Assembly (NCBI GenBank): GCA_965226495.1
Contig: OZ245365.1
Location: 4,992,001 to 5,056,000 of the forward strand
Direction of reading: 5' to 3'
DNA from: Candidatus Marinacidobacterales bacterium
Lineage (GTDB): Bacteria; Acidobacteriota; Vicinamibacteria; Marinacidobacterales; DATDRI01
DNA: 64,000 nucleotides
Shown here piece by piece: positions 3 through 9,288 of this stretch (position 1 is the first letter of the stretch; every line of letters starts with the position of its first letter). The position numbers and the translations under genes were made by a program. The notes below the pieces were generated by a model. It was not told the DNA's origin. It was given only the letters and a program-made list of their open reading frames with translations, and did no database searches.

Positions 3-3000
3 TCCTGTAGCAAGATCACGTACACATTCCTAGGTATTGGCAGCGGCTCGCCCCAGCTATCCGCATGGCAAGTCGGGCTCCTGGAGAGCAAGACCCTCTC
101 GGAAGGATCGCTGGTGCTCGAAGAGGAAGAGCTCGAGTGGGTGCGATCGGTTGCGATCTCGAGCGAAGATGAATCGGTGGGTTTCTACAACGACTCCGAG
201 ATCTACATCCCCTTGATGGAAAAGCGCACCGTGACGCGTCGCGCCGAGAGGTACGCTACGACGAACAGCTATCGCACGACGGATTTCAATGACTTCGGGC
301 GACCCTGGAAGATCGTCGAATCCGGAGACCTGACGCGCACAACCACTAGAGTGTTTCAATATGGTTTTGGCCCCTACATTGTCGACCGGGTTGCTTCCGA
401 GTCGGTTAAGGTCGCGGGCGATAAAACGTTTACGATGAGCCGCGCGTTCGACCTCGGCGACGGTTTCATGAAGTCCGAAACGGTCTATGGAATCAAGACC
501 ACGTTTACACCAGACAGTTTCGGCAACCTCGCGCGCATAAAGAATGCTAACAACAACACAACCCAGTTCAGCTACTCTCAGGGCGTCCTTAGAAACACGA
601 CCACTCCCGAATACACCATCACGCGGTCCATCAATTCGGATGGGACCGTCGCATCGGAAACCCAGCGAGGTCTTACGACCCGGTTCGAATACGACCGTCT
701 TTTCCGAACTACTGAAATAGATCCCCCGGCCGGTAACAATATCGTTACTGCGTATGACAACCAGAACGGCTCGTTTCGGCGGGTGAAGCGGGGTTCCTCG
801 GTTTTTACTACCGAGCTCGACGGCCTCGGTCGCGTTTCGGGGACATCCAATTCGGTCCAGGTCAAAACGCACGCAGACTGGGATGCCTGTGGTCGGCGGG
901 TTTATCAAAGCTATCCCTTCACCGGAAACATCAGTATTGGGACCGCCTTCGAATACGACGCGCTCGGTCGACTCAAGAAGAAAACCAATACCGGCCCCAA
1001 TACGACCATGACGTACAGCTATTCGGGCTCGAACGGGATCGACGTCACTATTGAAGATGAAGAGGGGAGGACCACCGTTCAGGATTGGAGCGCCTTCGGC
1101 GACCCGCGAGACGCGAGGCTGGTCAAGCTCACCGACGCCAACGGGGCCGGGTGGCAGTACGTTTACAACACGCTCGGAAGCCAAACTCTCTTGAACCCGC
1201 CGGGATCGGTGCCGAATCGTAGCTGGACGTTCAACTCCAAGAACCAGCTAGTGCAAGAAACTCATCCTGAAAGTGGAACGCTCACGTACTCATACCGCGC
1301 AGCAGGAAACCTCGAATCTCGAACGGACGCCGCCTTCGGCCGCACTAGGTATCACTACGATGGTAATGAACGTCTCATTCTCATCGATCGACCCGGCGGG
1401 TATGGCGACATCGCGATGGATTATGACGATTCGGACAATCGCACGCTCCTTGATAACGGGGACGCGAGAAGCACTTTTACCTATGACGGCGCCAACCGGC
1501 TCGAGCGACGAGACGATGTCATCGGCGGGGAGACGTTCGTAACGCGATATGGATACGACGGGAACGACAACCTCGAGCGAATCGATTACCCCTCGGCACA
1601 AGTCGTTCAATACTCCTACGACAATGAGAACCGGATCACGCTCGTCCACGACGGAAACGCGACGTTCGCCGCCGATTTCGAATACCACGCTTCCGGAGGC
1701 GTGACCTCCTATCGAGCCGGGAACGACGTGACTCACAACTTCACGTATGACGATCGATATCGGGTCGAAGACGTCTACGACAACGGCGGGGTATTGGATC
1801 TACGTTATACGTACGATGACGTGGGGAACGTCACCGACATCGTGGACGGACGCCCAGGGATGAACCAGAGCTACCGGTACGACCAGCTTGACCGCCTCAC
1901 GACGGCCAATGGTTTTTGGGGAAATGGCAGCTTCACCTATGACCGGCTCGGCAACATGAAAACGAGGACCATCGACGGCTTGCAGTCGACCCATTCCTAC
2001 AACGTCTCGAAGCAGCGACTAACGTCCTCCTCGAATCCCGCCGAGAGCTTCAGTTACGACGCTAACGGAAATCTAATTGGGGATGACGCTGGCGTCTATA
2101 CCTACACGCCGGAAAACATGCTCGAGCGTGCAACCGTCGGGGGTACCGTCACCGACTACGGTTACGACGGGGACAACCTGAGGAAGTTGAAGTCGAGCGA
2201 CGGCAAGGCGCAATTTTTCCTCCACGGTGCCGGCAATCTGCTTCTGAGCGAGTTCGAAATCGGGTGCGAGGGGGACCTCCAGTCGGTGCGAGACTACGTC
2301 TATGCCGGGGCCCGAATGATCGCATCGGTCAACAACAAACTGAGCTCGCCGACGCCGGTCGGGCCGGCCGATAGGATCTCCTCGACGACACCTACCCTTA
2401 AATGGAGCACTGTGCCTGGCGCCACGAGTTACACGCTGGTCGTGGAGAACACAACCGACGGCACGACGCCTATCAACCTCTCGGGGATTGCCGACACTAG
2501 CTACACTCCGACGAGTGCGCTCTTGCCATACAAGAATTACCAATGGCGGGTGAAGTCAGGTGACGGCGCCAACCAAAGCTGCTTCTCCGACAACACGCAT
2601 TTCGAAATTTTCACCGCACTCCTTTCCGTGAGCGTCCCTTCCCATGGCACGACTGTGTACTCTCCTTTCTCGGTATCGGGTTGGGCCATCGACCGGGCGG
2701 CATCGACCGGAACCGGGGTCGATGCGGTGCATGTGTGGGCATTCCCATCGGGTGCGGACGGCAACTTCAGCGTCGGCACTTTCCTTGGGACAGCCACACT
2801 GGGAATCGAGCGGCCCGGGGTGGGTGCTGCGTTTGGAGAGCAGTTCACTCCGTCCGGTTACCGGTTGAACGTCAACACTCCTCTACCTCCGGGCGGCTAT
2901 ACCCTTCGCGTGTATGCCCGCTCTTCCGCGACCGGCACCTTCAACAATTCCCTGACGGTAGACATCACAGTGGCGCCAGCGCTCAGTGCTCCGTTAATGG

Positions 3001-4088
3001 TTATCGACCTTCCCCAACCGGGGGCGAGCGTCTCGGTGCCCTTCGCACTAGCAGGGTGGGCCATCGACCAGGCGGCATCGACCGGAACCGGTGTCGATGA
3101 GGTGCACGTGTGGGCGTTTCCGCCAAGTGGGGATGGCATCTTCCTCGGGGCAGCCACACTTGGAGTCGTGCGGCCCGGAGTGGGTGCTGTGTATGGAGAA
3201 CAGTTCACGCCGTCCGGTTACCAGTTGAACGTCACCACTCCTCTACCTCCGGGCGGCTACACGCTTCGGGCGTATGCCCGTTCTACGGTGACGGATACCT
3301 TTAACAATTCCCGGACGGTAGACATCACAGTGGCGCCAGCGCTCAGTGCTCCGTTAATGGTTATCGACCTTCCCCAACCGGGGGCGAGCGTCTCGGTACC
3401 CTTCGTACTGGCAGGGTGGGCCACCGATCAGGCGGCATCGACCGGAACAGGTGTCGATGGGGTGGCGGTATGGGCATTTCCGCAAGGTGAGGACGGCAAC
3501 TTCAGCGAAGGCATCGTCCTTGGGGCAGCCACACTGGGAATCGAGCGGCCCGGGGTGGGTGCTGTCTATGGCGAACAGTTCACTCCGTCCGGTTACCAGT
3601 TGAACGTCACCACTCCTCTACCCCCGGGCAGCTATACCCTTCGCGTGTATGCCCGCTCTTCCGTGACCGGTACCTTTAACAACTCCCAGTCGGTAGACAT
3701 CACGGCGCTCCCGCCCAGTGCTCCGTTAATGGTTATCGACCTTCCCCAACCGGGAGCGGCCGTCTCCGTTCCCTTCCTGCTGGCAGGTTGGGCCTTTGAC
3801 CTGGCGGCATCGACAGGAACCGGTGTCGATGCGGTGCACGCGTGGGCGTTTCCGCCAGGTGGGGACGGCAACTTCAGCGTCGGCATCTTCCTTGGGGCAG
3901 CCACACTGGGAGTCGTGCGGCCCGGAGTGGGTGCTGTATATGGAGAACAGTTCACTCCGTCCGGTTACCAGTTGAACGTCATCACTCCTCTACTTCAAGG
4001 CGGCTACACGCTTCGCGTCTATGCCCGTTCTACAGTGACCGGCACCTTTAATCATTCCCGGGCGGTAGACATTACCGTGACGCCCTAG
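3..4088 (+). CDS. Rhs/YD-repeat cage protein (5'-truncated by window) with C-terminal FN3-like and four Ig-like domains, lacking the Rhs core and toxin
   Basis: Frame is open from position 3. Many YD repeats (YDALGRL, YDGANRL, YDDVGNV, YDQLDRL) end at RDYVYAGARMIASV (~2330), followed by an FN3-like segment and 4 GWAxD...GVDxVHVWAFP repeats. No YYHxDxLGS, GKERD or DPxG motifs. Confidence 0.9.
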   Translation, partial: SCSKITYTFLGIGSGSPQLSAWQVGLLESKTLSEGSLVLEEEELEWVRSVAISSEDESVGFYNDSEIYIPLMEKRTVTRRAERYATTNSYRTTDFNDFGRPWKIVESGDLTRTTTRVFQYGFGPYIVDRVASESVKVAGDKTFTMSRAFDLGDGFMKSETVYGIKTTFTPDSFGNLARIKNANNNTTQFSYSQGVLRNTTTPEYTITRSINSDGTVASETQRGLTTRFEYDRLFRTTEIDPPAGNNIVTAYDNQNGSFRRVKRGSSVFTTELDGLGRVSGTSNSVQVKTHADWDACGRRVYQSYPFTGNISIGTAFEYDALGRLKKKTNTGPNTTMTYSYSGSNGIDVTIEDEEGRTTVQDWSAFGDPRDARLVKLTDANGAGWQYVYNTLGSQTLLNPPGSVPNRSWTFNSKNQLVQETHPESGTLTYSYRAAGNLESRTDAAFGRTRYHYDGNERLILIDRPGGYGDIAMDYDDSDNRTLLDNGDARSTFTYDGANRLERRDDVIGGETFVTRYGYDGNDNLERIDYPSAQVVQYSYDNENRITLVHDGNATFAADFEYHASGGVTSYRAGNDVTHNFTYDDRYRVEDVYDNGGVLDLRYTYDDVGNVTDIVDGRPGMNQSYRYDQLDRLTTANGFWGNGSFTYDRLGNMKTRTIDGLQSTHSYNVSKQRLTSSSNPAESFSYDANGNLIGDDAGVYTYTPENMLERATVGGTVTDYGYDGDNLRKLKSSDGKAQFFLHGAGNLLLSEFEIGCEGDLQSVRDYVYAGARMIASVNNKLSSPTPVGPADRISSTTPTLKWSTVPGATSYTLVVENTTDGTTPINLSGIADTSYTPTSALLPYKNYQWRVKSGDGANQSCFSDNTHFEIFTALLSVSVPSHGTTVYSPFSVSGWAIDRAASTGTGVDAVHVWAFPSGADGNFSVGTFLGTATLGIERPGVGAAFGEQFTPSGYRLNVNTPLPPGGYTLRVYARSSATGTFNNSLTVDITVAPALSAPLMVIDLPQPGASVSVPFALAGWAIDQAASTGTGVDEVHVWAFPPSGDGIFLGAATLGVVRPGVGAVYGEQFTPSGYQLNVTTPLPPGGYTLRAYARSTVTDTFNNSRTVDITVAPALSAPLMVIDLPQPGASVSVPFVLAGWATDQAASTGTGVDGVAVWAFPQGEDGNFSEGIVLGAATLGIERPGVGAVYGEQFTPSGYQLNVTTPLPPGSYTLRVYARSSVTGTFNNSQSVDITALPPSAPLMVIDLPQPGAAVSVPFLLAGWAFDLAASTGTGVDAVHAWAFPPGGDGNFSVGIFLGAATLGVVRPGVGAVYGEQFTPSGYQLNVITPLLQGGYTLRVYARSTVTGTFNHSRAVDITVTP
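2620..4085 (+). repeat. Four intragenic ~360-375 nt repeats encoding Ig-like domains
   Basis: GACATCACAGTGGCGCCAGCGCTCAGTGCTCCGTTAATGGTTATCGACCT at 2961 and 3321. CCGTCCGGTTACC recurs four times. Confidence 0.9.
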
Positions 4089-4130
4089 CCGTCACGGCAC
4101 GAGCGTGGTTTACTAAAGAGGACGAGCATC

Positions 4131-5087
4131 ATGAAGATAGGTCGAGCGACAAGCAAGAAACTACAAGTCCTCCTCGGGTGTTTGCTGCTTGTGCCCGGCC
4201 TCGCCAACGCCCAGCGAATCGAGTACTACCACCTCGACGCCTTGGGCTCAGTACGTGCGGTGACCGACGAGAACGCCGACGTCATCGAACGCCACGACTA
4301 CCTCCCCTACGGCGAAGAGTGGAACCCCGAACCCTCCACCAACTCGCGGAAGTTCACCGGCAAGGAACGGGATGAGGAAACGGGCTTCGATTACTTTGGG
4401 GCGCGGTACTACGAGGCACAGCTTGCCCGGTTTACCACCATCGACCCCGCGCTGACTTTTGAAGAGAACCGCGTCGACCCGCAGAGGTGGAATCGGTACG
4501 CGTATGTTCGGAATAACCCCATGCGGTATGTGGACCCGGATGGCAAGATCCTCGAAACTCCGTGGGACATATTCAACATCACTCTCGGCCTAGCATCTTT
4601 GGGAGCGAATGTAGCGGTAGGGAATGTGGGTGGTGCCGCGGCGGACGCCGTGGGTCTGGCGATCGATGTTGCAGCAGCGGTCGTGCCGGGAGTGCCTGGA
4701 GGTGCCGGCACCGCGATACGAGCGATCCGGGGTGCAGACAAGGTTGCTGACATCACTCGCGCTACTCGGAGAGGTAGGCAGGTTCGAAGTCAGATCCACC
4801 ATGTGGCCACCGACAAATCCATCAAGAGTGGGTTCACTGAACAGTTCAACAGGGTTTTCTCGAGGGCTGGAATGAATCTACAGGACGATGCCAACAAACT
4901 CCTTCTCCAAGGTCATTCCGGCCGCCACTCCCCAAAATACCACCAGTACGTTCTCGGCCGTCTTAAAACAGTTACCGATGGACTGTCTGGAAATAACTAC
5001 ACGCGAGCGCTTAGAAACGAACTCGGATCCATTAGAACGGAGCTGACAAGGAATCCAGATCTGGTGAAGGGCATCGGCCTCGAATGA
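4131..5087 (+). CDS. Signal peptide + Rhs core + AHH-type (HNH-fold) nuclease toxin
   Basis: RBS AGAGGA; signal peptide ending ANA; YYHLDALGS, KFTGKERDEETG, NNPMRYVDPDG; C-terminal QIHHVAT...DDANK...HSGRHSPKYHQYV. Confidence 0.85.
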   Translation: MKIGRATSKKLQVLLGCLLLVPGLANAQRIEYYHLDALGSVRAVTDENADVIERHDYLPYGEEWNPEPSTNSRKFTGKERDEETGFDYFGARYYEAQLARFTTIDPALTFEENRVDPQRWNRYAYVRNNPMRYVDPDGKILETPWDIFNITLGLASLGANVAVGNVGGAAADAVGLAIDVAAAVVPGVPGGAGTAIRAIRGADKVADITRATRRGRQVRSQIHHVATDKSIKSGFTEQFNRVFSRAGMNLQDDANKLLLQGHSGRHSPKYHQYVLGRLKTVTDGLSGNNYTRALRNELGSIRTELTRNPDLVKGIGLE

Positions 5088-5668
5088 AATGGTTCTGGGT
5101 TGTTGCATGCGACAACACTGTCCCTAAGCCTTTCGTTGCCGATTGTGAAGACCTAAAGAAAGCAGAGGAGTTAGACTTATTGAGAGGCCAACCGATAGAA
5201 CATTGGGATGAAACGGCTTGGTTGAAAGCTTCGAAGCCAGAAAACGACGGCGACCCGGACGACGTACTCCAAGAGCACCTTGGAATACCTGTCTACTCCA
5301 ACCGACTCCGCGTGGCTCTGAACAGTGCTTCTATTACGGGAATCCAATACCTGTCGTTGCAGGTTTTGCGGCCGAATAACTCTCCCTTTGATGGATTCAG
5401 CATTGCGAACATACTCAATTTAGTTGCAGCGCTAGACTTCGAGAATTCAGACTACGACCGCTTTCCCGAGGATTACTTCCTTCCGGAGCGCAGGGGAATG
5501 ATACGGGGAATCCGCAGAGCCACACTACTGAAGTCGGCGCTAGATGGACTCCAGGTCATCCGTCTCAAGGAATACCCACGCAGCATCTACGTGTCAGACG
5601 AATTCAAAGCCGTGTTTGAATCCGGTGCCTTCACCGGCTACTCGTTCCATCAAATTCAACTCTCTTAG
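5084..5668 (+). CDS. Cognate immunity protein (Imm11/DUF1629-like)
   Basis: ATGA overlap with the toxin stop. PVYSNRLR...IQY...ANILNLVAALD...IYVSDEFK pattern resembles immunity proteins of AHH toxins. Confidence 0.7.
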   Translation: MKWFWVVACDNTVPKPFVADCEDLKKAEELDLLRGQPIEHWDETAWLKASKPENDGDPDDVLQEHLGIPVYSNRLRVALNSASITGIQYLSLQVLRPNNSPFDGFSIANILNLVAALDFENSDYDRFPEDYFLPERRGMIRGIRRATLLKSALDGLQVIRLKEYPRSIYVSDEFKAVFESGAFTGYSFHQIQLS

Positions 5669-5906
5669 AACGGAAGGCTACAAGTGGAACCGCCCCCTGT
5701 AAGTTTGAAACGACTACAGTAGAACGAAACTTATCGACGTGTTTCCGCACACCTTTAGGCACGGTGACCTATCTAGGTGTGCCAAAAGGAGACGGCAACG
5801 GTGAACACGAGTCCCAATCTGTCCAAAGTCGTAGAGTGGTCGAAGTAGCTCGAGACCAGCACGAATGATGAGCCACAGGCCTTCCGCACGCCTCGCCGTG
5901 CCACCC

Positions 5907-6242
5907 GTGAGTGTTGAAGATCCGGATACCATCGACTTCGTGGCCCTTGACCCCAGCGGAGAGGTCGTGCTCGTCATGGTGGAAGGCCGCGAGTGGGATG
6001 GTTCGGACGTGCGCCTGTTCGAGCTGCAAGAAAAGATTAACGGTTACGCGTCGTTTGTTCTTGACGGCAAGCTAATTGAGCAGCACCCAGAGCTGTTGGG
6101 CAAGCCTGTCCGGTTAGAGTTGCGGTGCGCTAGACCACCGGACCCGAAGACCGCTGGGTTTTTGGAAATGGTGAGCAGGAAGCTAGAGGAGGAAGGCCTG
6201 ACGCTTCGTGTGCAGCAGATTAGATCCGATCCTTCTGGTTAA
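5907..6242 (+). CDS. DUF6572-like small protein, copy 1
   Basis: VEDPDTIDFV...W...LQEKINGYASFVLDG. Identity with copy 2 begins at this GTG. Confidence 0.7.
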   Translation: MSVEDPDTIDFVALDPSGEVVLVMVEGREWDGSDVRLFELQEKINGYASFVLDGKLIEQHPELLGKPVRLELRCARPPDPKTAGFLEMVSRKLEEEGLTLRVQQIRSDPSG

Positions 6243-6432
6243 AACGCCGAGAGGCGTCGATCTTCCCCTGGATAAACTCCGCGCCAAACACCTTCTCTGC
6301 ATTCAGCCGATTGTGCGGGCCACAGTGAAGTCGGAGGTACCTCTCGTCGTGGCACCGATACAGCGCATACTGCCGCAGGTGCTCGATCTGGAGTCCCGTT
6401 CTCGGCGGACACCGGGACCGTCACGGCCTCGG
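6220..6432 (-). pseudogene. 3' remnant of the HNH endonuclease gene
   Basis: Aligns with 8218-8431 (GLQIEHLR...RYLRLHCGPHNRLNAEKVFG). No 5' part. Confidence 0.85.
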
Positions 6433-6500
6433 CGGTAGACATTACCGTGACGCCCTAGCCGTCACGGCACGAGCATGGTTTACTAAAGAGGACGAGCAAC
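6431..6500 (+). repeat. Duplicate of 4061-4130 (Rhs gene 3' end, hairpin, RBS)
   Basis: GGCGGTAGACATTACCGTGACGCCCTAGCCGTCACGGCACGAGC...TTTACTAAAGAGGACGAGCA in both places, with 2 mismatches. Confidence 0.95.
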
Positions 6501-7484
6501 ATGAAGATAGGTCAAACACTAAACAAGAGATTACACGTTCTCCTCGCGTGTTGGCTGCTCGTGCCCACGCTCGCCAACGCCCAGCGAATCGAGTACTACC
6601 ACCTCGACGCCCTGGGCTCAGTTCGTGCGGTGACCGACGAGAACGCCGACGTCATCGAACGCCACGACTACCTCCCCTACGGTGAGGAGTGGAACCCCGA
6701 GCCTTCGACCAACTCACGGAAGTTCACCGGCAAGGAACGGGATGAGGAAACGGGCTTCGATTACTTTGGGGCGCGGTACTACGAGTCTCAGCTTGCTCGG
6801 TTTACCACTATTGACCCCGCGCTGACTTTTGCAGAAAACCGCGTCGACCCCCAGAGGTGGAATCGGTATGCCTACGTCCGCAATAACCCGCTGCGGTATG
6901 TGGACCCGGATGGGAAGATCCTCGAGACTCCGTGGGACATATTCAACATCACTCTCGGCCTAGCATCTTTGGGAGCGAATGTAGCGGTAGGGAATGTGGG
7001 TGGTGCCGCGGCGGACGCCGTGGGTCTGGCGATCGATGTTGCCGCGGCCATTGCGCCCGGCGTTCCCGGTGGCGCCGGCACTACGCTACGAGCGATCCGG
7101 GGAGCGGATAAAGTCGCTGACCTGACTAAAACCGCCAGGAGAGGCTACCAATGGACTAGGTCCGGCACCCAAGCCACGTCTCAAGGCTTCCGATCGTTCT
7201 CCGCATTCAAACGAGCGGCGGGGCGGGCTGGGCCGGGGAGACAATGGCACCACGTTGTGGAACAAACGCCAAACAATCTCTCTCGGTTTGGCGCGGACAC
7301 AATCCACAACAACTCGAACTTGATCCCCGTTGACATTGAGACCCATAGAAGAATTAGCGGCTTTTTTTCATCAAAGCAGCCGTTCACTCAAGGTTCGACC
7401 GTACGACAATGGCTTGGCACCCGATCGCTAGAGCAACAGACGAAATTCGGACAAGAAGTCTTGGAGCGCTTCGCAAAAAAATGA
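6501..7484 (+). CDS. Signal peptide + Rhs core + HNH-fold (WHH-type) toxin
   Basis: Near-identical to 4131-4750 up to GADKVAD, then an unrelated C-terminus GFRSFSAFKR...QWHHVVEQ...HNNSNLI...HRRIS. Confidence 0.85.
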   Translation: MKIGQTLNKRLHVLLACWLLVPTLANAQRIEYYHLDALGSVRAVTDENADVIERHDYLPYGEEWNPEPSTNSRKFTGKERDEETGFDYFGARYYESQLARFTTIDPALTFAENRVDPQRWNRYAYVRNNPLRYVDPDGKILETPWDIFNITLGLASLGANVAVGNVGGAAADAVGLAIDVAAAIAPGVPGGAGTTLRAIRGADKVADLTKTARRGYQWTRSGTQATSQGFRSFSAFKRAAGRAGPGRQWHHVVEQTPNNLSRFGADTIHNNSNLIPVDIETHRRISGFFSSKQPFTQGSTVRQWLGTRSLEQQTKFGQEVLERFAKK

Positions 7485-7852
7485 AGTCAGACCAGGTTCA
7501 AAGGGCAAACATTCAAGATCTTCTAGAGGCCTACAAGGATGCTGCCGCCGCCCACTGCATGGCCACGGAACGAGGTGACCAAAATACAGCAAACCGAAGC
7601 CACGACGTCCTAGTAGGAATTCACACAGAGCTGCGTCGCCGGGGGGCGGAGGCGCTCAACGAGCTATTGAATTTGCTACAGAACAAAGACACTGGGGTGC
7701 GATTTTGGGCCGCTTCCCACGCTCTTGAGTTCTCTCCAGAAAAAGGAGAAAACGTCCTATCTGAGATAGCCAAGATCCCCAAGAGCCTAATTGCTTTCAG
7801 CGCAGAGGTAACTCTCCGGGAGTGGAGGGCGGGCCGGCTACGGTTTCCTTGA
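7481..7852 (+). CDS. Cognate immunity protein (DUF2019-like, helical/HEAT-like)
   Basis: ATGA overlap with the toxin stop. GD..TAN...LL...VRFWAASHAL...AEVTLREWRAG. Confidence 0.7.
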   Translation: MKSDQVQRANIQDLLEAYKDAAAAHCMATERGDQNTANRSHDVLVGIHTELRRRGAEALNELLNLLQNKDTGVRFWAASHALEFSPEKGENVLSEIAKIPKSLIAFSAEVTLREWRAGRLRFP

Positions 7853-7904
7853 CCTCCTTAGGATACTGCCCCACTCTCTCCGCTGCTGGCAGGTATTGAG
7901 TACC

Positions 7905-8240
7905 GTGAGTGTTGAAGATCCGGATACCATCGACTTTCTGGCCCATGACCCCAGCGGAGAGGTCGTGCTCGTCATGGTGGAAGGCCGCGAGTGGGATGGT
8001 TCGGACGTGCGCCTGTTAGAGCTGCAAGAAAAGACTAACGGTTACGCGTCGTTTGTTCTTGACGGCAAGCTAATTGAGCAGCACCCAGAGCTGTTGGGCA
8101 AGCCTGTCCGGTTCGAGTTGCGGTGCGCTAGACCACCGGACCCGAAGACCGCTGGGTTTTTGGAAATGGTGAGCAGGAAGCTAGAGGAGGAAGGCCTAAC
8201 GCTCCGTGTGCAGCAGATTAGATCCGATCCTTCTGGTTAA
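7905..8240 (+). CDS. DUF6572-like small protein, copy 2
   Basis: About 8 nt differences from 5907-6242, counted by eye. Confidence 0.7.
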   Translation: MSVEDPDTIDFLAHDPSGEVVLVMVEGREWDGSDVRLLELQEKTNGYASFVLDGKLIEQHPELLGKPVRFELRCARPPDPKTAGFLEMVSRKLEEEGLTLRVQQIRSDPSG

Positions 8241-9288
8241 AACGCCGTGAGGCATCGATCTTCTCCCGAATAAACTCTGCGCCAAACACCTTCTCTGCAT
8301 TCAGTCGATTGTGCGGGCCACAGTGAAGTCGGAGGTATCTCTCGTCGTGGCTCCGAAACAACGCATACGGCCGCAGGTGCTCGATCTGGAGTCCCGTTCG
8401 GGACCGGCACCGGGTCCCGTCGGGACCTCGGTACTCACATTGATAGCCGGCCCGATCGTGGACCCGCTCCCGGACCTCTGAGGGAATGTAGCGGGTCTTC
8501 GCGGAAACCTTGCCCGGGCAAGGTTTGCCGCCGGTTTTCGATTCGCGTTCGAGCCGCCGTGCGCGCTTTCTCTTGAGGTCTTTCTTGTCGAGCGCGATAT
8601 CTAGTGCCTGCTCCATGATCCCGGCCATGTGGTTCAGGGAGTTCTCGACGCCGAGGACTTCCGCCAGGCGCTCGAACTTCTCCTTGAACTTCCGGTCGGC
8701 GGCAAAGCGAAAGTTGTAAACCTCTGGCCTTGCCGGCTCGAGAATACTCGGCGACACTCGAGGAGCGGGGCGCGGCGTCTCGGGCACCACCCCGGCCGGT
8801 ACACTCGGAGGTGAAGTTGGAGCCGAGCGAAATGGGGTCTTTCGAATCGAGGGTGCAAAGACGGGCTTTGGCTGCAACGCGACGAGATATTCCTCGACCT
8901 CGCGCCTTGTCATCCCACCGCAATCGCTCAGAAGTCTCTCGATGTTCTCCTCCCGAAGATGCGGGGCGAGCAAACCGGCGACGGTAAGGCTCACCCGATT
9001 CTCGGCCAACGCAACGAGGAGCCTGGGAAAACGTCTCGAAACATTGGCCACCTGAATGCGACGGGCGACCGAGCCTTCGCTCAGATTCAAGCGTTCGGCA
9101 CAGTACGCGAAGAGACTCTTGTAGCCGCGCTCGAGATGGCCTTTTCTTCTCGACATCTCCGCGATGTGGGCGATAGCGAGCGCGACGTTTCGTTTCTCGG
9201 CGCGGACCAGCCGCTCCGTGGAGTGATCGAGCTCTTCCGTCGACAGACTCTCGAGTCTGTCGCAGTAAATCCTTACTTTTTCGATCAA
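8218..9288 (-). CDS. HNH endonuclease-domain protein (DUF222-like N-terminus, probably selfish element)
   Basis: GYKSLFAYC N-terminal motif; RYIPSEVRERV..RAGYQCEY...RC...LQIEH...HCGPHN. Confidence 0.8.
   Translation of the reverse strand: MIEKVRIYCDRLESLSTEELDHSTERLVRAEKRNVALAIAHIAEMSRRKGHLERGYKSLFAYCAERLNLSEGSVARRIQVANVSRRFPRLLVALAENRVSLTVAGLLAPHLREENIERLLSDCGGMTRREVEEYLVALQPKPVFAPSIRKTPFRSAPTSPPSVPAGVVPETPRPAPRVSPSILEPARPEVYNFRFAADRKFKEKFERLAEVLGVENSLNHMAGIMEQALDIALDKKDLKRKRARRLERESKTGGKPCPGKVSAKTRYIPSEVRERVHDRAGYQCEYRGPDGTRCRSRTGLQIEHLRPYALFRSHDERYLRLHCGPHNRLNAEKVFGAEFIREKIDASRRFNQKDRI

What the first reader, a model, noticed from the sequence alone, without database searches (positions are those of the whole stretch)
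3..7852. Split Rhs system: cage protein completed in trans by separately secreted, interchangeable plug-toxin subunits
Seen: the large YD gene ends its Rhs part at RDYVYAGARMIASV, then carries FN3/Ig domains and stops. Two downstream genes each have an RBS and a signal peptide (MKIGRATSKKLQVLLGCLLLVPGLANA; MKIGQTLNKRLHVLLACWLLVPTLANA). Each mature sequence starts with QRIEYYHLDALGS, the motif that follows that loop in canonical Rhs proteins, and continues through the whole core to DPDG and a toxin. Known: Rhs cage, core/DPxG autoprotease and toxin are normally one polypeptide, and orphan CT modules generally lack export signals. Inference: a two-chain, Sec-exported Rhs in which one adhesin-bearing cage can be loaded with either toxin without DNA rearrangement. 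The signal peptides have diverged but kept their n/h/c pattern, which suggests selection.
Basis: partly seen in the sequence, partly recalled or inferred. Interest (0 to 1): 0.87.

Follow-up and report, generated by a model that had tools for sequence, protein, structure and literature searches.

The report
Two-gene, Sec-exported Rhs toxin system
A soil acidobacterium encodes an Rhs toxin container whose closing plug and toxin sit on small, separately exported proteins instead of on the container protein, a widespread but apparently undescribed layout that could show how such containers are loaded.

Summary
The large YD-repeat gene (window 3-4088) ends its cage at RDYVYAGARMIASV, continues into an FN3-like domain and four Ig-like repeats, and stops. 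It has no Rhs core. Two downstream genes (4131-5087, 6501-7484) each have an RBS, an ATG and a Sec-type signal peptide. Their mature parts begin at the last ~110 residues of the Rhs core (TIGR03696, DPDG), followed by a toxin and an immunity gene.

This is a family, mostly in Acidobacteriota:
- 1367 short relatives were found; 117 of 119 scored carry a signal-peptide-like leader directly before the core.
- 109 of the 120 best cage relatives lack a core, and about ten end exactly at the split point.
- Of 13 loci with at least 3 kb upstream, 7 have a core-less cage gene upstream and 1 has everything in one frame.
- A third layout puts a hydrophobic helix, a basic loop and the signal peptide between tail and core in one ORF.

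A folded bare-cage relative maps onto solved Rhs cocoons but lacks their last ~107-113 residues.

In this strain the cage gene carries a frameshift upstream of the window; an intact allele exists elsewhere. Verdict: new variant of a known kind. Two-chain assembly is likely but not shown.

The parts
3..2330 (+). 3' two-thirds of the YD-repeat cage (cocoon) of the large gene. The gene starts about 1.07 kb upstream of the window with its own Sec signal peptide, and in this genome carries a one-base frameshift about 0.87 kb upstream of the window.
   Evidence: cage end motif RDYVYAGARMIASV
2331..4088 (+). C-terminal tail of the cage protein: an FN3-like domain, then four Ig-like (Y_Y_Y/Gmad2-type) repeats (tandem array 2682-4084), then the stop at 4086-4088. 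No Rhs core domain.
4115..4122 (+). Shine-Dalgarno-like aaagagga, 8 nt before the ATG of small gene 1
4131..4211 (+). Signal peptide of small protein 1 (27 residues: basic n-region, hydrophobic core, ANA before Q)
4212..4547 (+). Rhs repeat-associated core (plug / aspartyl autoprotease region) of small protein 1, ending in DPDG-K
4548..5087 (+). Gly/Ala-rich hydrophobic linker and AHH (HNH/EndoVII) nuclease toxin domain (residues 209-304)
5084..5668 (+). Imm11 immunity protein; start overlaps the toxin gene's stop
5865..6242 (+). DUF6572 protein (copy 1). Role unknown; repeated after module 2.
6431..6458 (+). 28-nt remnant of the large gene's 3' end (copy of 4061-4088) at the start of the duplicated module
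6485..6492 (+). Shine-Dalgarno-like aaagagga before small gene 2
6501..6581 (+). Signal peptide of small protein 2
6582..6917 (+). Rhs core (plug) of small protein 2, ending in DPDG-K
6918..7484 (+). Linker and second toxin domain. No Pfam family for residues 201-327; weak Ntox10 hit on the linker only.
7481..7852 (+). DUF2019 protein, candidate immunity protein of toxin 2 (the longest ORF starts at 7409; an internal ATG at 7481 overlaps the toxin gene's stop)
7896..8240 (+). DUF6572 protein (copy 2; 98% identical to copy 1 over 300 nt)

Best explanation
This is a Sec-dependent Rhs polymorphic-toxin system of a Vicinamibacteria-type acidobacterium. The canonical single polypeptide is divided at the start of the C-terminal plug.

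Gene 1 encodes signal peptide, N-terminal region, YD-repeat cocoon and a variable adhesin-like tail, and nothing more. Each small gene encodes its own signal peptide, the last ~110 residues of the Rhs core (the strands that seal the cocoon in solved Rhs proteins and carry the DPxG autoprotease site), a hydrophobic Gly/Ala-rich linker and a polymorphic toxin. A cytoplasmic immunity gene follows.

Proposed mechanism (inferred):
1. Both chains cross the inner membrane unfolded through Sec.
2. Signal peptidase I frees a mature N-terminus 4 residues before YYHLD.
3. In the periplasm the plug completes the open end of the cocoon, with the toxin inside or attached.
4. The core cuts after DPDG.
5. The tail domains bind a target surface.

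Several plug-toxin genes can serve one cage. Sister loci make the same two chains from one ORF, by placing a hydrophobic helix, a basic loop and the signal peptide between tail and core.

Shown here: the gene structures, the complementary truncation, the family-wide conservation, the synteny and the fused relatives. Inferred: export, cleavage, docking, encapsulation, the route across the outer membrane and delivery.
For: 1. Complementary truncation.
- The small proteins match TIGR03696 (residues 57-138) and only positions ~1150-1260 of the 1261-position RHS_core profile. The intact cage allele P0121 has no core hit.
- An AlphaFold2 model of a natural bare-cage relative (P0182, 1094 aa, 40% identical in the cage-region search, mean pLDDT 90.9) aligns to solved Rhs cocoons at Z 20-27. 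Its last residue falls at RhsA (7q97) residue 1237 and at S. bongori Rhs residue 1313 of a 360-1420 construct.
- RhsA is cut after W1350, and its C-terminal aspartyl protease domain seals the cocoon (PMC8765631, passages read).

2. Conservation of the small-gene architecture.
- 1367 proteins of 174-557 aa match at E<=1e-10.
- Of the best 120, 119 have the YYH motif and 117 of those have a leader-like N-terminus ending 2-7 residues before it. The leader sequences are unrelated to each other, and the toxin Pfam families are many.
- Longer relatives are fewer (256) and less similar.

3. Conservation of core-less cages.
- 1187 relatives were found. Of the best 120, 109 have no core hit.
- About ten end 3-11 residues after the ...DY[IV]YAG.R[LM].A motif.
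- Most have hydrophobic N-termini.

4. Synteny. Of 13 leader-type loci with at least 3 kb upstream:
- 7 have a core-less cage gene within 0.9 kb upstream (L036, L044, L052, L053, L114, L133, L139).
- 1 has cage, tail, leader and core in one frame (L039).
- 1 has a cage gene downstream (L113).
- 4 have none (L037, L040, L043, L045).

5. Fused relatives.
- 11 of the 120 cage relatives carry a core 52-922 residues after the cage end.
- Two cages found by cage profile alone in G064 are single ORFs with helix, basic loop, leader and core.
- 33 of 120 longer relatives have an internal leader. By my reading of the listing, about 24 of these also have an upstream hydrophobic segment and at least 4 Arg/Lys.

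6. Both window chains have Sec-type leaders, and both small genes have an RBS.
Against: - No test of binding exists.
- In the window's genome the cage gene is broken by a one-base frameshift just after its signal peptide. Contigs of 3 of 4 runs laid (three studies) carry the same sequence; only one run and the database allele P0121 are continuous. The system may therefore be inactive in this strain.
- 4 of 13 informative loci have no cage nearby. For 4 of the 5 such genomes searched, no clear family cage was found elsewhere. These are incomplete MAGs, so absence is not shown.
- The residue after DPxG is R or K in 104 of the 114 relatives in which the motif was found, not the L/W/F of characterised Rhs proteins (consensus from PMC8765631). 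Autoproteolysis may differ or be lost.
- How a toxin would enter a separately folded cocoon, and how the complex would leave a diderm cell, is unknown. No secretion genes flank the locus.
- The signal-peptide calls are heuristic.
Confidence: 0.62

Rival explanations
1. The small proteins are independent Sec/T2SS-type secreted toxins. The 110-residue Rhs core serves only as a self-processing or carrier module. The core-less YD protein is a separate surface adhesin or lectin that merely shares ancestry and neighbourhood.
For: - 4 of 13 informative loci lack a nearby cage. One small gene (L043) sits among housekeeping genes.
- Short relatives (1367) outnumber cage relatives (1187) in two searches that are not strictly comparable.
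- The cage of this strain is frameshifted while both small genes are intact.
Against: - In solved Rhs proteins this region is a set of strands that spiral into and seal the cocoon; it is not a free-standing domain (PMC8765631, passages).
- The split point is the same in cage genes and small genes.
- Single-ORF relatives make both parts together.
- Synteny holds in 8 of 13 loci.
Confidence: 0.22
2. The small genes are ordinary silent orphan rhs-CT/immunity cassettes. They would be kept only as recombination substrates, and the apparent leaders would be incidental.
For: The two modules share a 697-nt ungapped repeat that begins 28 nt inside the large gene's 3' end, the classic footprint of C-terminal displacement.
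Against: - Both have an RBS and an ATG.
- 117 of 119 relatives keep a leader-like N-terminus although the leader sequences are unrelated.
- The main gene has no core into which a cassette could recombine.
Confidence: 0.05
3. In this strain the locus is a decaying remnant. The cage is a pseudogene, and the split says nothing about function here.
For: The frameshift after codon ~69 of the cage gene is also present in contigs of 3 of 4 runs from three studies.
Against: - Everything downstream of the frameshift is an uninterrupted 1663-codon frame. It is 98% identical to the intact allele, and the only gap is a 29-residue length difference in a tail repeat.
- Both small genes and their immunity genes are intact.
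- The split architecture itself is conserved far beyond this strain.
Confidence: 0.11

Closest known systems
Canonical single-chain Rhs effectors (e.g. P. protegens RhsA, PDB 7q97; S. bongori Rhs, 8qjb-d; A. baumannii Tse15)
   Same: YD-repeat cocoon (VIA Z 20-27 for a cage relative; profile hits). TIGR03696 core with P....DP.G. Polymorphic C-terminal toxin followed by immunity gene.
   Different: Here the cocoon and the plug-plus-toxin are separate genes, each with its own Sec signal peptide. There is no PAAR or VgrG domain among the hits for the cage protein. A variable adhesin-like tail follows the cage. K/R rather than L/W/F follows DPxG.
Tc toxin BC subcomplex: TcB with interchangeable TcC subunits (e.g. 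Y. entomophaga YenB with YenC1-3; PMC11067744, title, abstract and outline seen)
   Same: A cocoon completed by a second, separately encoded chain that brings the core and the toxin. One shell partner can take different toxin-bearing partners from distinct loci.
   Different: TcC supplies about a third of the YD shell as well as the plug; here the second chain is the plug only. Tc needs a TcA translocator and has no Sec leaders on B or C (recalled). The toxins here are paired with immunity genes, which points to bacterial targets.
Sec-dependent Rhs/WapA of Gram-positive bacteria and bacterial teneurin-like proteins (PMC12704120, listing only; PMC13018210, abstract and passages)
   Same: N-terminal Sec signal peptide on a YD-shell toxin, no dedicated injection machine nearby, extra adhesion domains.
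   Different: In what I read, those are single polypeptides with the plug and toxin attached.
Orphan rhs-CT / immunity cassettes of Enterobacteria (recalled; Zhang et al. 2012, PMC3482391, passages seen)
   Same: Tandem toxin-immunity modules downstream of a main gene that share a conserved 5' segment with each other, plus a remnant of the main gene's 3' end.
   Different: Classic orphans lack their own start and export signal. These have an RBS, an ATG and a conserved signal peptide, and the main gene has no core of its own.

Membership tests
Rhs / YD-repeat polymorphic toxin systems | YD-repeat beta-cocoon | tested here: met
   PF05593 E 6.6e-24. TIGR01643. Profile hits to 13 solved Rhs-type (Rhs and teneurin-like) sequences at E 4.7e-35 to 3e-24. 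The model of relative P0182 aligns to Rhs cocoons at Z 20-27.
Rhs / YD-repeat polymorphic toxin systems | RHS repeat-associated core domain with P....DP.G motif | tested here: met
   TIGR03696 at 75.9 and 76.2 bits (cut-off 32.5) on both small proteins. NP.RYVDPDG is present. It lies on a different polypeptide from the cage.
Rhs / YD-repeat polymorphic toxin systems | Cage, core and toxin on one polypeptide | tested here: not met
   Stop at 4086-4088. New RBS, ATG and leader at 4115-4211. No core hit in the intact cage allele.
Rhs / YD-repeat polymorphic toxin systems | Variable C-terminal toxin with cognate immunity gene downstream | tested here: met
   AHH (PF14412) with Imm11 (PF07791). The second toxin comes with DUF2019. 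Relatives carry many toxin families.
Rhs / YD-repeat polymorphic toxin systems | Aspartyl autoproteolysis at DPxG-[LWF] | not testable with these tools
   Asp residues D105, D116 and D135 are invariant or nearly so. The residue after G is R/K in 104 of the 114 relatives in which the motif was found.
T6SS-delivered Rhs effectors | PAAR/VgrG or prePAAR N-terminus | tested here: not met
   The N-terminus of the cage protein is a Sec-type leader followed by DUF6531-type sequence. No PAAR or VgrG appears among the Pfam or NCBIfam hits. T6SS genes elsewhere in the genome were not searched.
Tc toxin BC complex | Both chains contribute YD repeats to the shell; TcB beta-propeller gate; TcA partner | tested here: not met
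   The small chain has only the ~110-residue core. The propeller and TcA were not searched. Tc entries align to the cage model at Z about 20.
Orphan rhs-CT cassettes | No own translation start or export signal | tested here: not met
   RBS, ATG and leader in both modules. Leader-like N-terminus in 117 of 119 relatives.
Sec signal peptide (SPase I type) | Basic n-region, hydrophobic h-region, small residues at -3/-1 | tested here: inconclusive
   Met by my hydropathy and -3/-1 heuristic. SignalP was not available. A Cys inside the h-region of both window leaders gives a weak lipobox-like L-[LA]-[GA]-C that is not conserved in relatives.

The most novel reading that the evidence does not exclude
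A family of Rhs containers is assembled after export from two chains. An open cocoon carries exchangeable receptor-binding tails. A separately translocated plug-toxin subunit closes and arms it in the periplasm. Sister loci reach the same two chains from one polyprotein, by inserting a membrane hairpin (helix, basic loop, signal peptide) that signal peptidase cuts. If so, toxin loading into an Rhs cocoon can happen in trans and after translocation, and one cage can be armed combinatorially.
Probability: 0.5. Interest if true: 0.82.

Novelty: new variant of a known kind. Interest (0 to 1): 0.7.

Why it matters
How the toxin gets inside an Rhs or Tc cocoon, and how it gets out, is still argued. 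All solved cases have the plug and toxin covalently continuous with at least part of the shell. A natural system in which the plug-toxin is a separate ~30 kDa secreted protein would allow three things:
- study of loading, sealing and autoproteolysis by simple mixing;
- direct tests of whether one cage accepts several toxins;
- a Sec-dependent, T6SS-independent Rhs model in diderm bacteria.

It also bears on annotation. Thousands of short 'RHS repeat-associated core domain-containing proteins' and 'YD repeat' or 'discoidin/Ig-like domain' proteins in Acidobacteriota would be two halves of one weapon.

Five full-text searches found no paper that describes this split. Subscription journals and supplementary files were not searchable.

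Tried and rejected
- **Complex prediction.** Cage residues 285-1140 of A3 with small-protein residues 28-140 of A2 came back 'NOT FOLDED' for chain 2. This gives no verdict on binding.
- **RNA evidence.** No RNA holder was listed for the 9.9-kb stretch. This is no evidence on expression.
- **Cages elsewhere in genomes whose small genes lack a neighbouring cage.** A clear family cage turned up only in G064. G061 and G065 gave tail-domain hits only, G062 gave a hit in a 3901-codon frame, and G063 gave none. These are MAGs of unknown completeness, so absence is not shown.
- **Matching small proteins to cages by identical 'longest contig' lengths.** I considered this for the two protein tables and dropped it as too indirect.
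- **Toxin 2 and the Gly/Ala-rich linker.** A relaxed Pfam search gave nothing.
- **Divergence of the two window leaders.** 73 of 90 nt are identical across the leader, against about 95% in the core. I do not take this as evidence of selection; mosaic recombination explains it equally well.
- **Split as an assembly artefact.** Rejected. Stops, RBS and leaders recur in independent assemblies.
- **Frameshift as an error of this assembly alone.** Rejected. Contigs of three other runs carry it.
- **Lipoprotein reading of the leaders.** Considered unlikely. The Cys is not conserved, while A-x-A before Q is common.

Full report
**Where the window lies and what the locus holds**

The window is G000:C1:4992001-5056000 of a 6.34-Mb single-contig genome. 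Named relatives of the locus are Vicinamibacteria and other Acidobacteriota MAGs.

The frame 3-4088 is the 3' part of a large gene. Reading upstream shows an ATG about 1.07 kb before the window. A 23-residue Sec-type leader follows, then the usual Rhs N-terminal sequence. Just after codon ~69 there is a one-base frameshift, and the rest of the gene runs on as an uninterrupted 1663-codon frame.

An intact 1690-residue allele (P0121) is in the protein collection. It is 98% identical over the aligned 1650 columns; 29 of those columns are gaps, a deletion in a tail repeat.

I laid the contigs of four runs from four studies on the region. Three agree with the window's genome at the frameshift site, and one has one letter fewer, which gives a continuous frame. 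The break is therefore a real variant and not an error of this assembly alone.

**The observation**

The cage part carries YD repeats (PF05593, TIGR01643) and ends at RDYVYAGARMIASV (window ~2330). After it come an FN3-like stretch and four Ig-like repeats (tandem array 2682-4084), then a stop. Neither the window fragment nor P0121 has a TIGR03696 core.

Forty-two bases later comes small gene 1, and 2370 bases further on small gene 2. Each has aaagagga 8 nt before its ATG. Each encodes a 27-residue leader with a basic n-region, a hydrophobic core and ANA before Q. Four residues later the sequence YYHLDALGS begins.

TIGR03696 matches residues 57-138 of both proteins. The E. coli-type RHS_core profile aligns only its last ~110 of 1261 positions, to residues 23/25-138.

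After DPDG-K come a Gly/Ala-rich hydrophobic linker and different toxins:
- Module 1: an AHH nuclease followed by Imm11.
- Module 2: an unclassified domain followed by a DUF2019 protein.

The two modules are a 697-nt ungapped duplication that starts 28 nt inside the large gene's 3' end. The own genome holds only these two leader-core genes plus one canonical Rhs in a 3596-codon frame elsewhere.

**It is a family, not a local accident**

A search with residues 1-140 of small protein 1 among proteins of 174-557 aa found 1367 at E<=1e-10.
- The best 120 are mostly 300-335 aa.
- 119 have the YYH motif.
- By my heuristic, 117 of those have a signal-peptide-like N-terminus that ends 2-7 residues before it.
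- The leaders share no sequence, only the pattern. The core is nearly invariant up to DPDG. The C-termini carry many toxin families, including AHH, HNH, several Tox-REase, SHH, URI2, GH-E, NucA/B and Ntox10/28.
- Among proteins of 558-2000 aa only 256 matched, and at lower identity.

The reverse search used the cage (residues 215-1090) and found 1187 proteins at E<=1e-20. Of the best 120, 109 have no core hit. About ten end 3-11 residues after the conserved ...DY[IV]YAG.R[LM].A motif, which makes them bare cages. The others carry tails of very different make-up: Calx-beta, discoidin, fn3, BACON-like, Big_7, FG-GAP/VCBS, InlB B-repeats and PPC. Most have hydrophobic N-termini.

**Neighbourhood**

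I examined 157 loci from genomes and metagenomes, and 27 hold a leader-type core gene. Thirteen of these have at least 3 kb of upstream sequence:
- Seven have a core-less cage gene ending within 0.9 kb upstream (L036, L044, L052, L053, L114, L133, L139). L044 has two small genes and L053 has three.
- One (L039) has cage, tail, leader, core and toxin in a single 2138-codon frame.
- One (L113) has a cage gene downstream.
- Four have none (L037, L040, L043, L045).

L043 lies among housekeeping genes. Among 61 genomes of relatives, 16 had core matches. Only G007 (unpublished; seemingly the same record as L036) had the short leader form.

**A third architecture**

In L039 and its orphan copy L042, the tail ends in a hydrophobic segment and an Arg cluster. 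These run straight, in frame, into the leader and core.

Two cages that I found in G064 with the cage profile alone show the same order in single 1970- and 1949-codon frames: hydrophobic helix, a basic loop of about 20-55 residues, leader-like segment, then core.

Of the best 120 longer relatives of the small protein, 33 have an internal leader-like segment before the core. By my reading of the listing, about 24 of these also have an upstream hydrophobic segment and at least four Arg/Lys between. The other 86 have no such segment and look like ordinary fused or orphan forms. One of the 120 had no N-terminal core hit.

Eleven of the 120 cage relatives are fused, with 52-922 residues inserted between cage end and core.

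So one clade holds three layouts: canonical single chains, single ORFs with an internal hairpin, and two genes.

The topology that fits the positive-inside rule is as follows. The helix spans outward-to-inward, the basic loop stays in the cytoplasm, the leader re-exports the core, and signal peptidase separates the two parts. This is my inference; nothing here tests it. An internal GTG start is also possible in L039.

**Structural mapping of the split**

The profile of 44 cages hits solved Rhs cocoons (RhsP, RhsA, Tre23, Tse5, Tse15, S. bongori Rhs, teneurin-like proteins) at E 4.7e-35 to 3e-24.

I folded a natural bare cage, P0182 (1094 aa, 40% identical to the window's protein in the cage-region search), with 44 sequences. 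The mean pLDDT is 90.9 and the pTM 0.83.

VIA-align gives Z 20-27 to Rhs, Tc BC and teneurin shells. The best local fits are 2.2-2.5 Å over 531-563 residues. Several long alignments have rmsd of 17-21 Å and give only the range.

The model's last residue aligns to:
- RhsA residue 1237;
- S. bongori Rhs residue 1313 of a 360-1420 construct;
- Tse15 residue 1245.

[quoted passage not shown] The bare cage therefore lacks the last ~107-113 residues of a canonical core. That is the length of the mature core of the small proteins (112 residues).

**What I could not test**

Docking therefore rests on comparative evidence only. No RNA run was listed. SignalP was not on hand.

The residue after DPxG is R/K in 104 of the 114 relatives in which the motif was found. 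It is not the L/W/F of the published consensus, so the cut may differ.

No secretion genes flank the locus. Upstream lies a TPR Ser/Thr kinase on the other strand. Downstream lie a DUF222/HNH-type gene and a solute symporter.

**Comparison and novelty**

The nearest known case is the Tc BC cocoon, where TcB is completed by interchangeable TcC subunits from distinct loci (PMC11067744; title, abstract and outline seen). There, however, TcC brings part of the shell.

Sec-dependent WapA and bacterial teneurin-like proteins are single chains in what I read (PMC13018210, abstract and passages; PMC12704120, listing only).

Zhang et al. 2012 note lectin and discoidin domains near the toxin end of RHS proteins. 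The passages I saw do not mention this split (PMC3482391).

Five full-text searches turned up no description of leader-core-toxin genes paired with core-less cages. Supplements and subscription journals were out of reach.

**Verdict**

- Observation: confirmed.
- Interpretation: partly supported. The two-chain reading is the best explanation (about 0.6). It is a new variant of the Rhs kind. In this particular strain the cage gene is broken.

Noticed in passing
L005:~13135 (= L193:436), about 0.87 kb upstream of window position 1: One-base frameshift in the cage gene just after its signal peptide. The same sequence is in contigs of 3 of 4 runs laid. One run and the database allele P0121 have a continuous frame, so both alleles circulate.
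   Followed up: yes
L039:8780-8900; L042; L203 and L204 (G064); proteins P0242-P0309: Single-ORF relatives place a hydrophobic helix, an Arg/Lys-rich loop and a signal-peptide-like segment directly before the Rhs core. The helix plus basic cluster resembles a C-terminal sorting signal (PEP-CTERM-like; the resemblance is recalled, not tested).
   Followed up: partly
window 5865-6242 and 7896-8240: Two 98% identical DUF6572 genes, one after each toxin-immunity pair. A homologue also follows the leader-core gene in L040 (6776-7093). Role unknown; it may be a second immunity or accessory protein.
   Followed up: partly
window 4548-4750 and 6918-7120 (residues ~140-205 of both small proteins): A Gly/Ala-rich, largely uncharged linker after DPDG is shared by many but not all relatives. 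The only family hit is weak and partial (Ntox10). It might act as a membrane-active pre-toxin segment.
   Followed up: partly
L046, L101, L096, L097, L103, L109, L047, L054: Other acidobacterial Rhs genes are fused but carry extra domains of 100 to more than 360 residues (discoidin-like, FN3, Ig-like) between the last cage strand and the core. This junction seems to tolerate insertions generally.
   Followed up: partly
window 8218-9288 (- strand): A 356-aa ORF with a weak DUF222 hit (E 2.3e-4, below the cut-off) and an HNH-like C-terminus lies just after the second DUF6572 gene. It is possibly a mobile-element-type endonuclease marking the end of the island.
   Followed up: no
runs X1-X20: Twenty runs from seven studies, filed under seven different organism labels, hold 69-95% of the sampled words of this 9.9-kb stretch. 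Near-identical strains are widespread or repeatedly sequenced. I did not look into the sources.
   Followed up: no
G000:C1:~3.109-3.114 Mb: The same genome also holds one canonical fused Rhs in a 3596-codon open frame. Its core is 42% identical to the small proteins' core.
   Followed up: no
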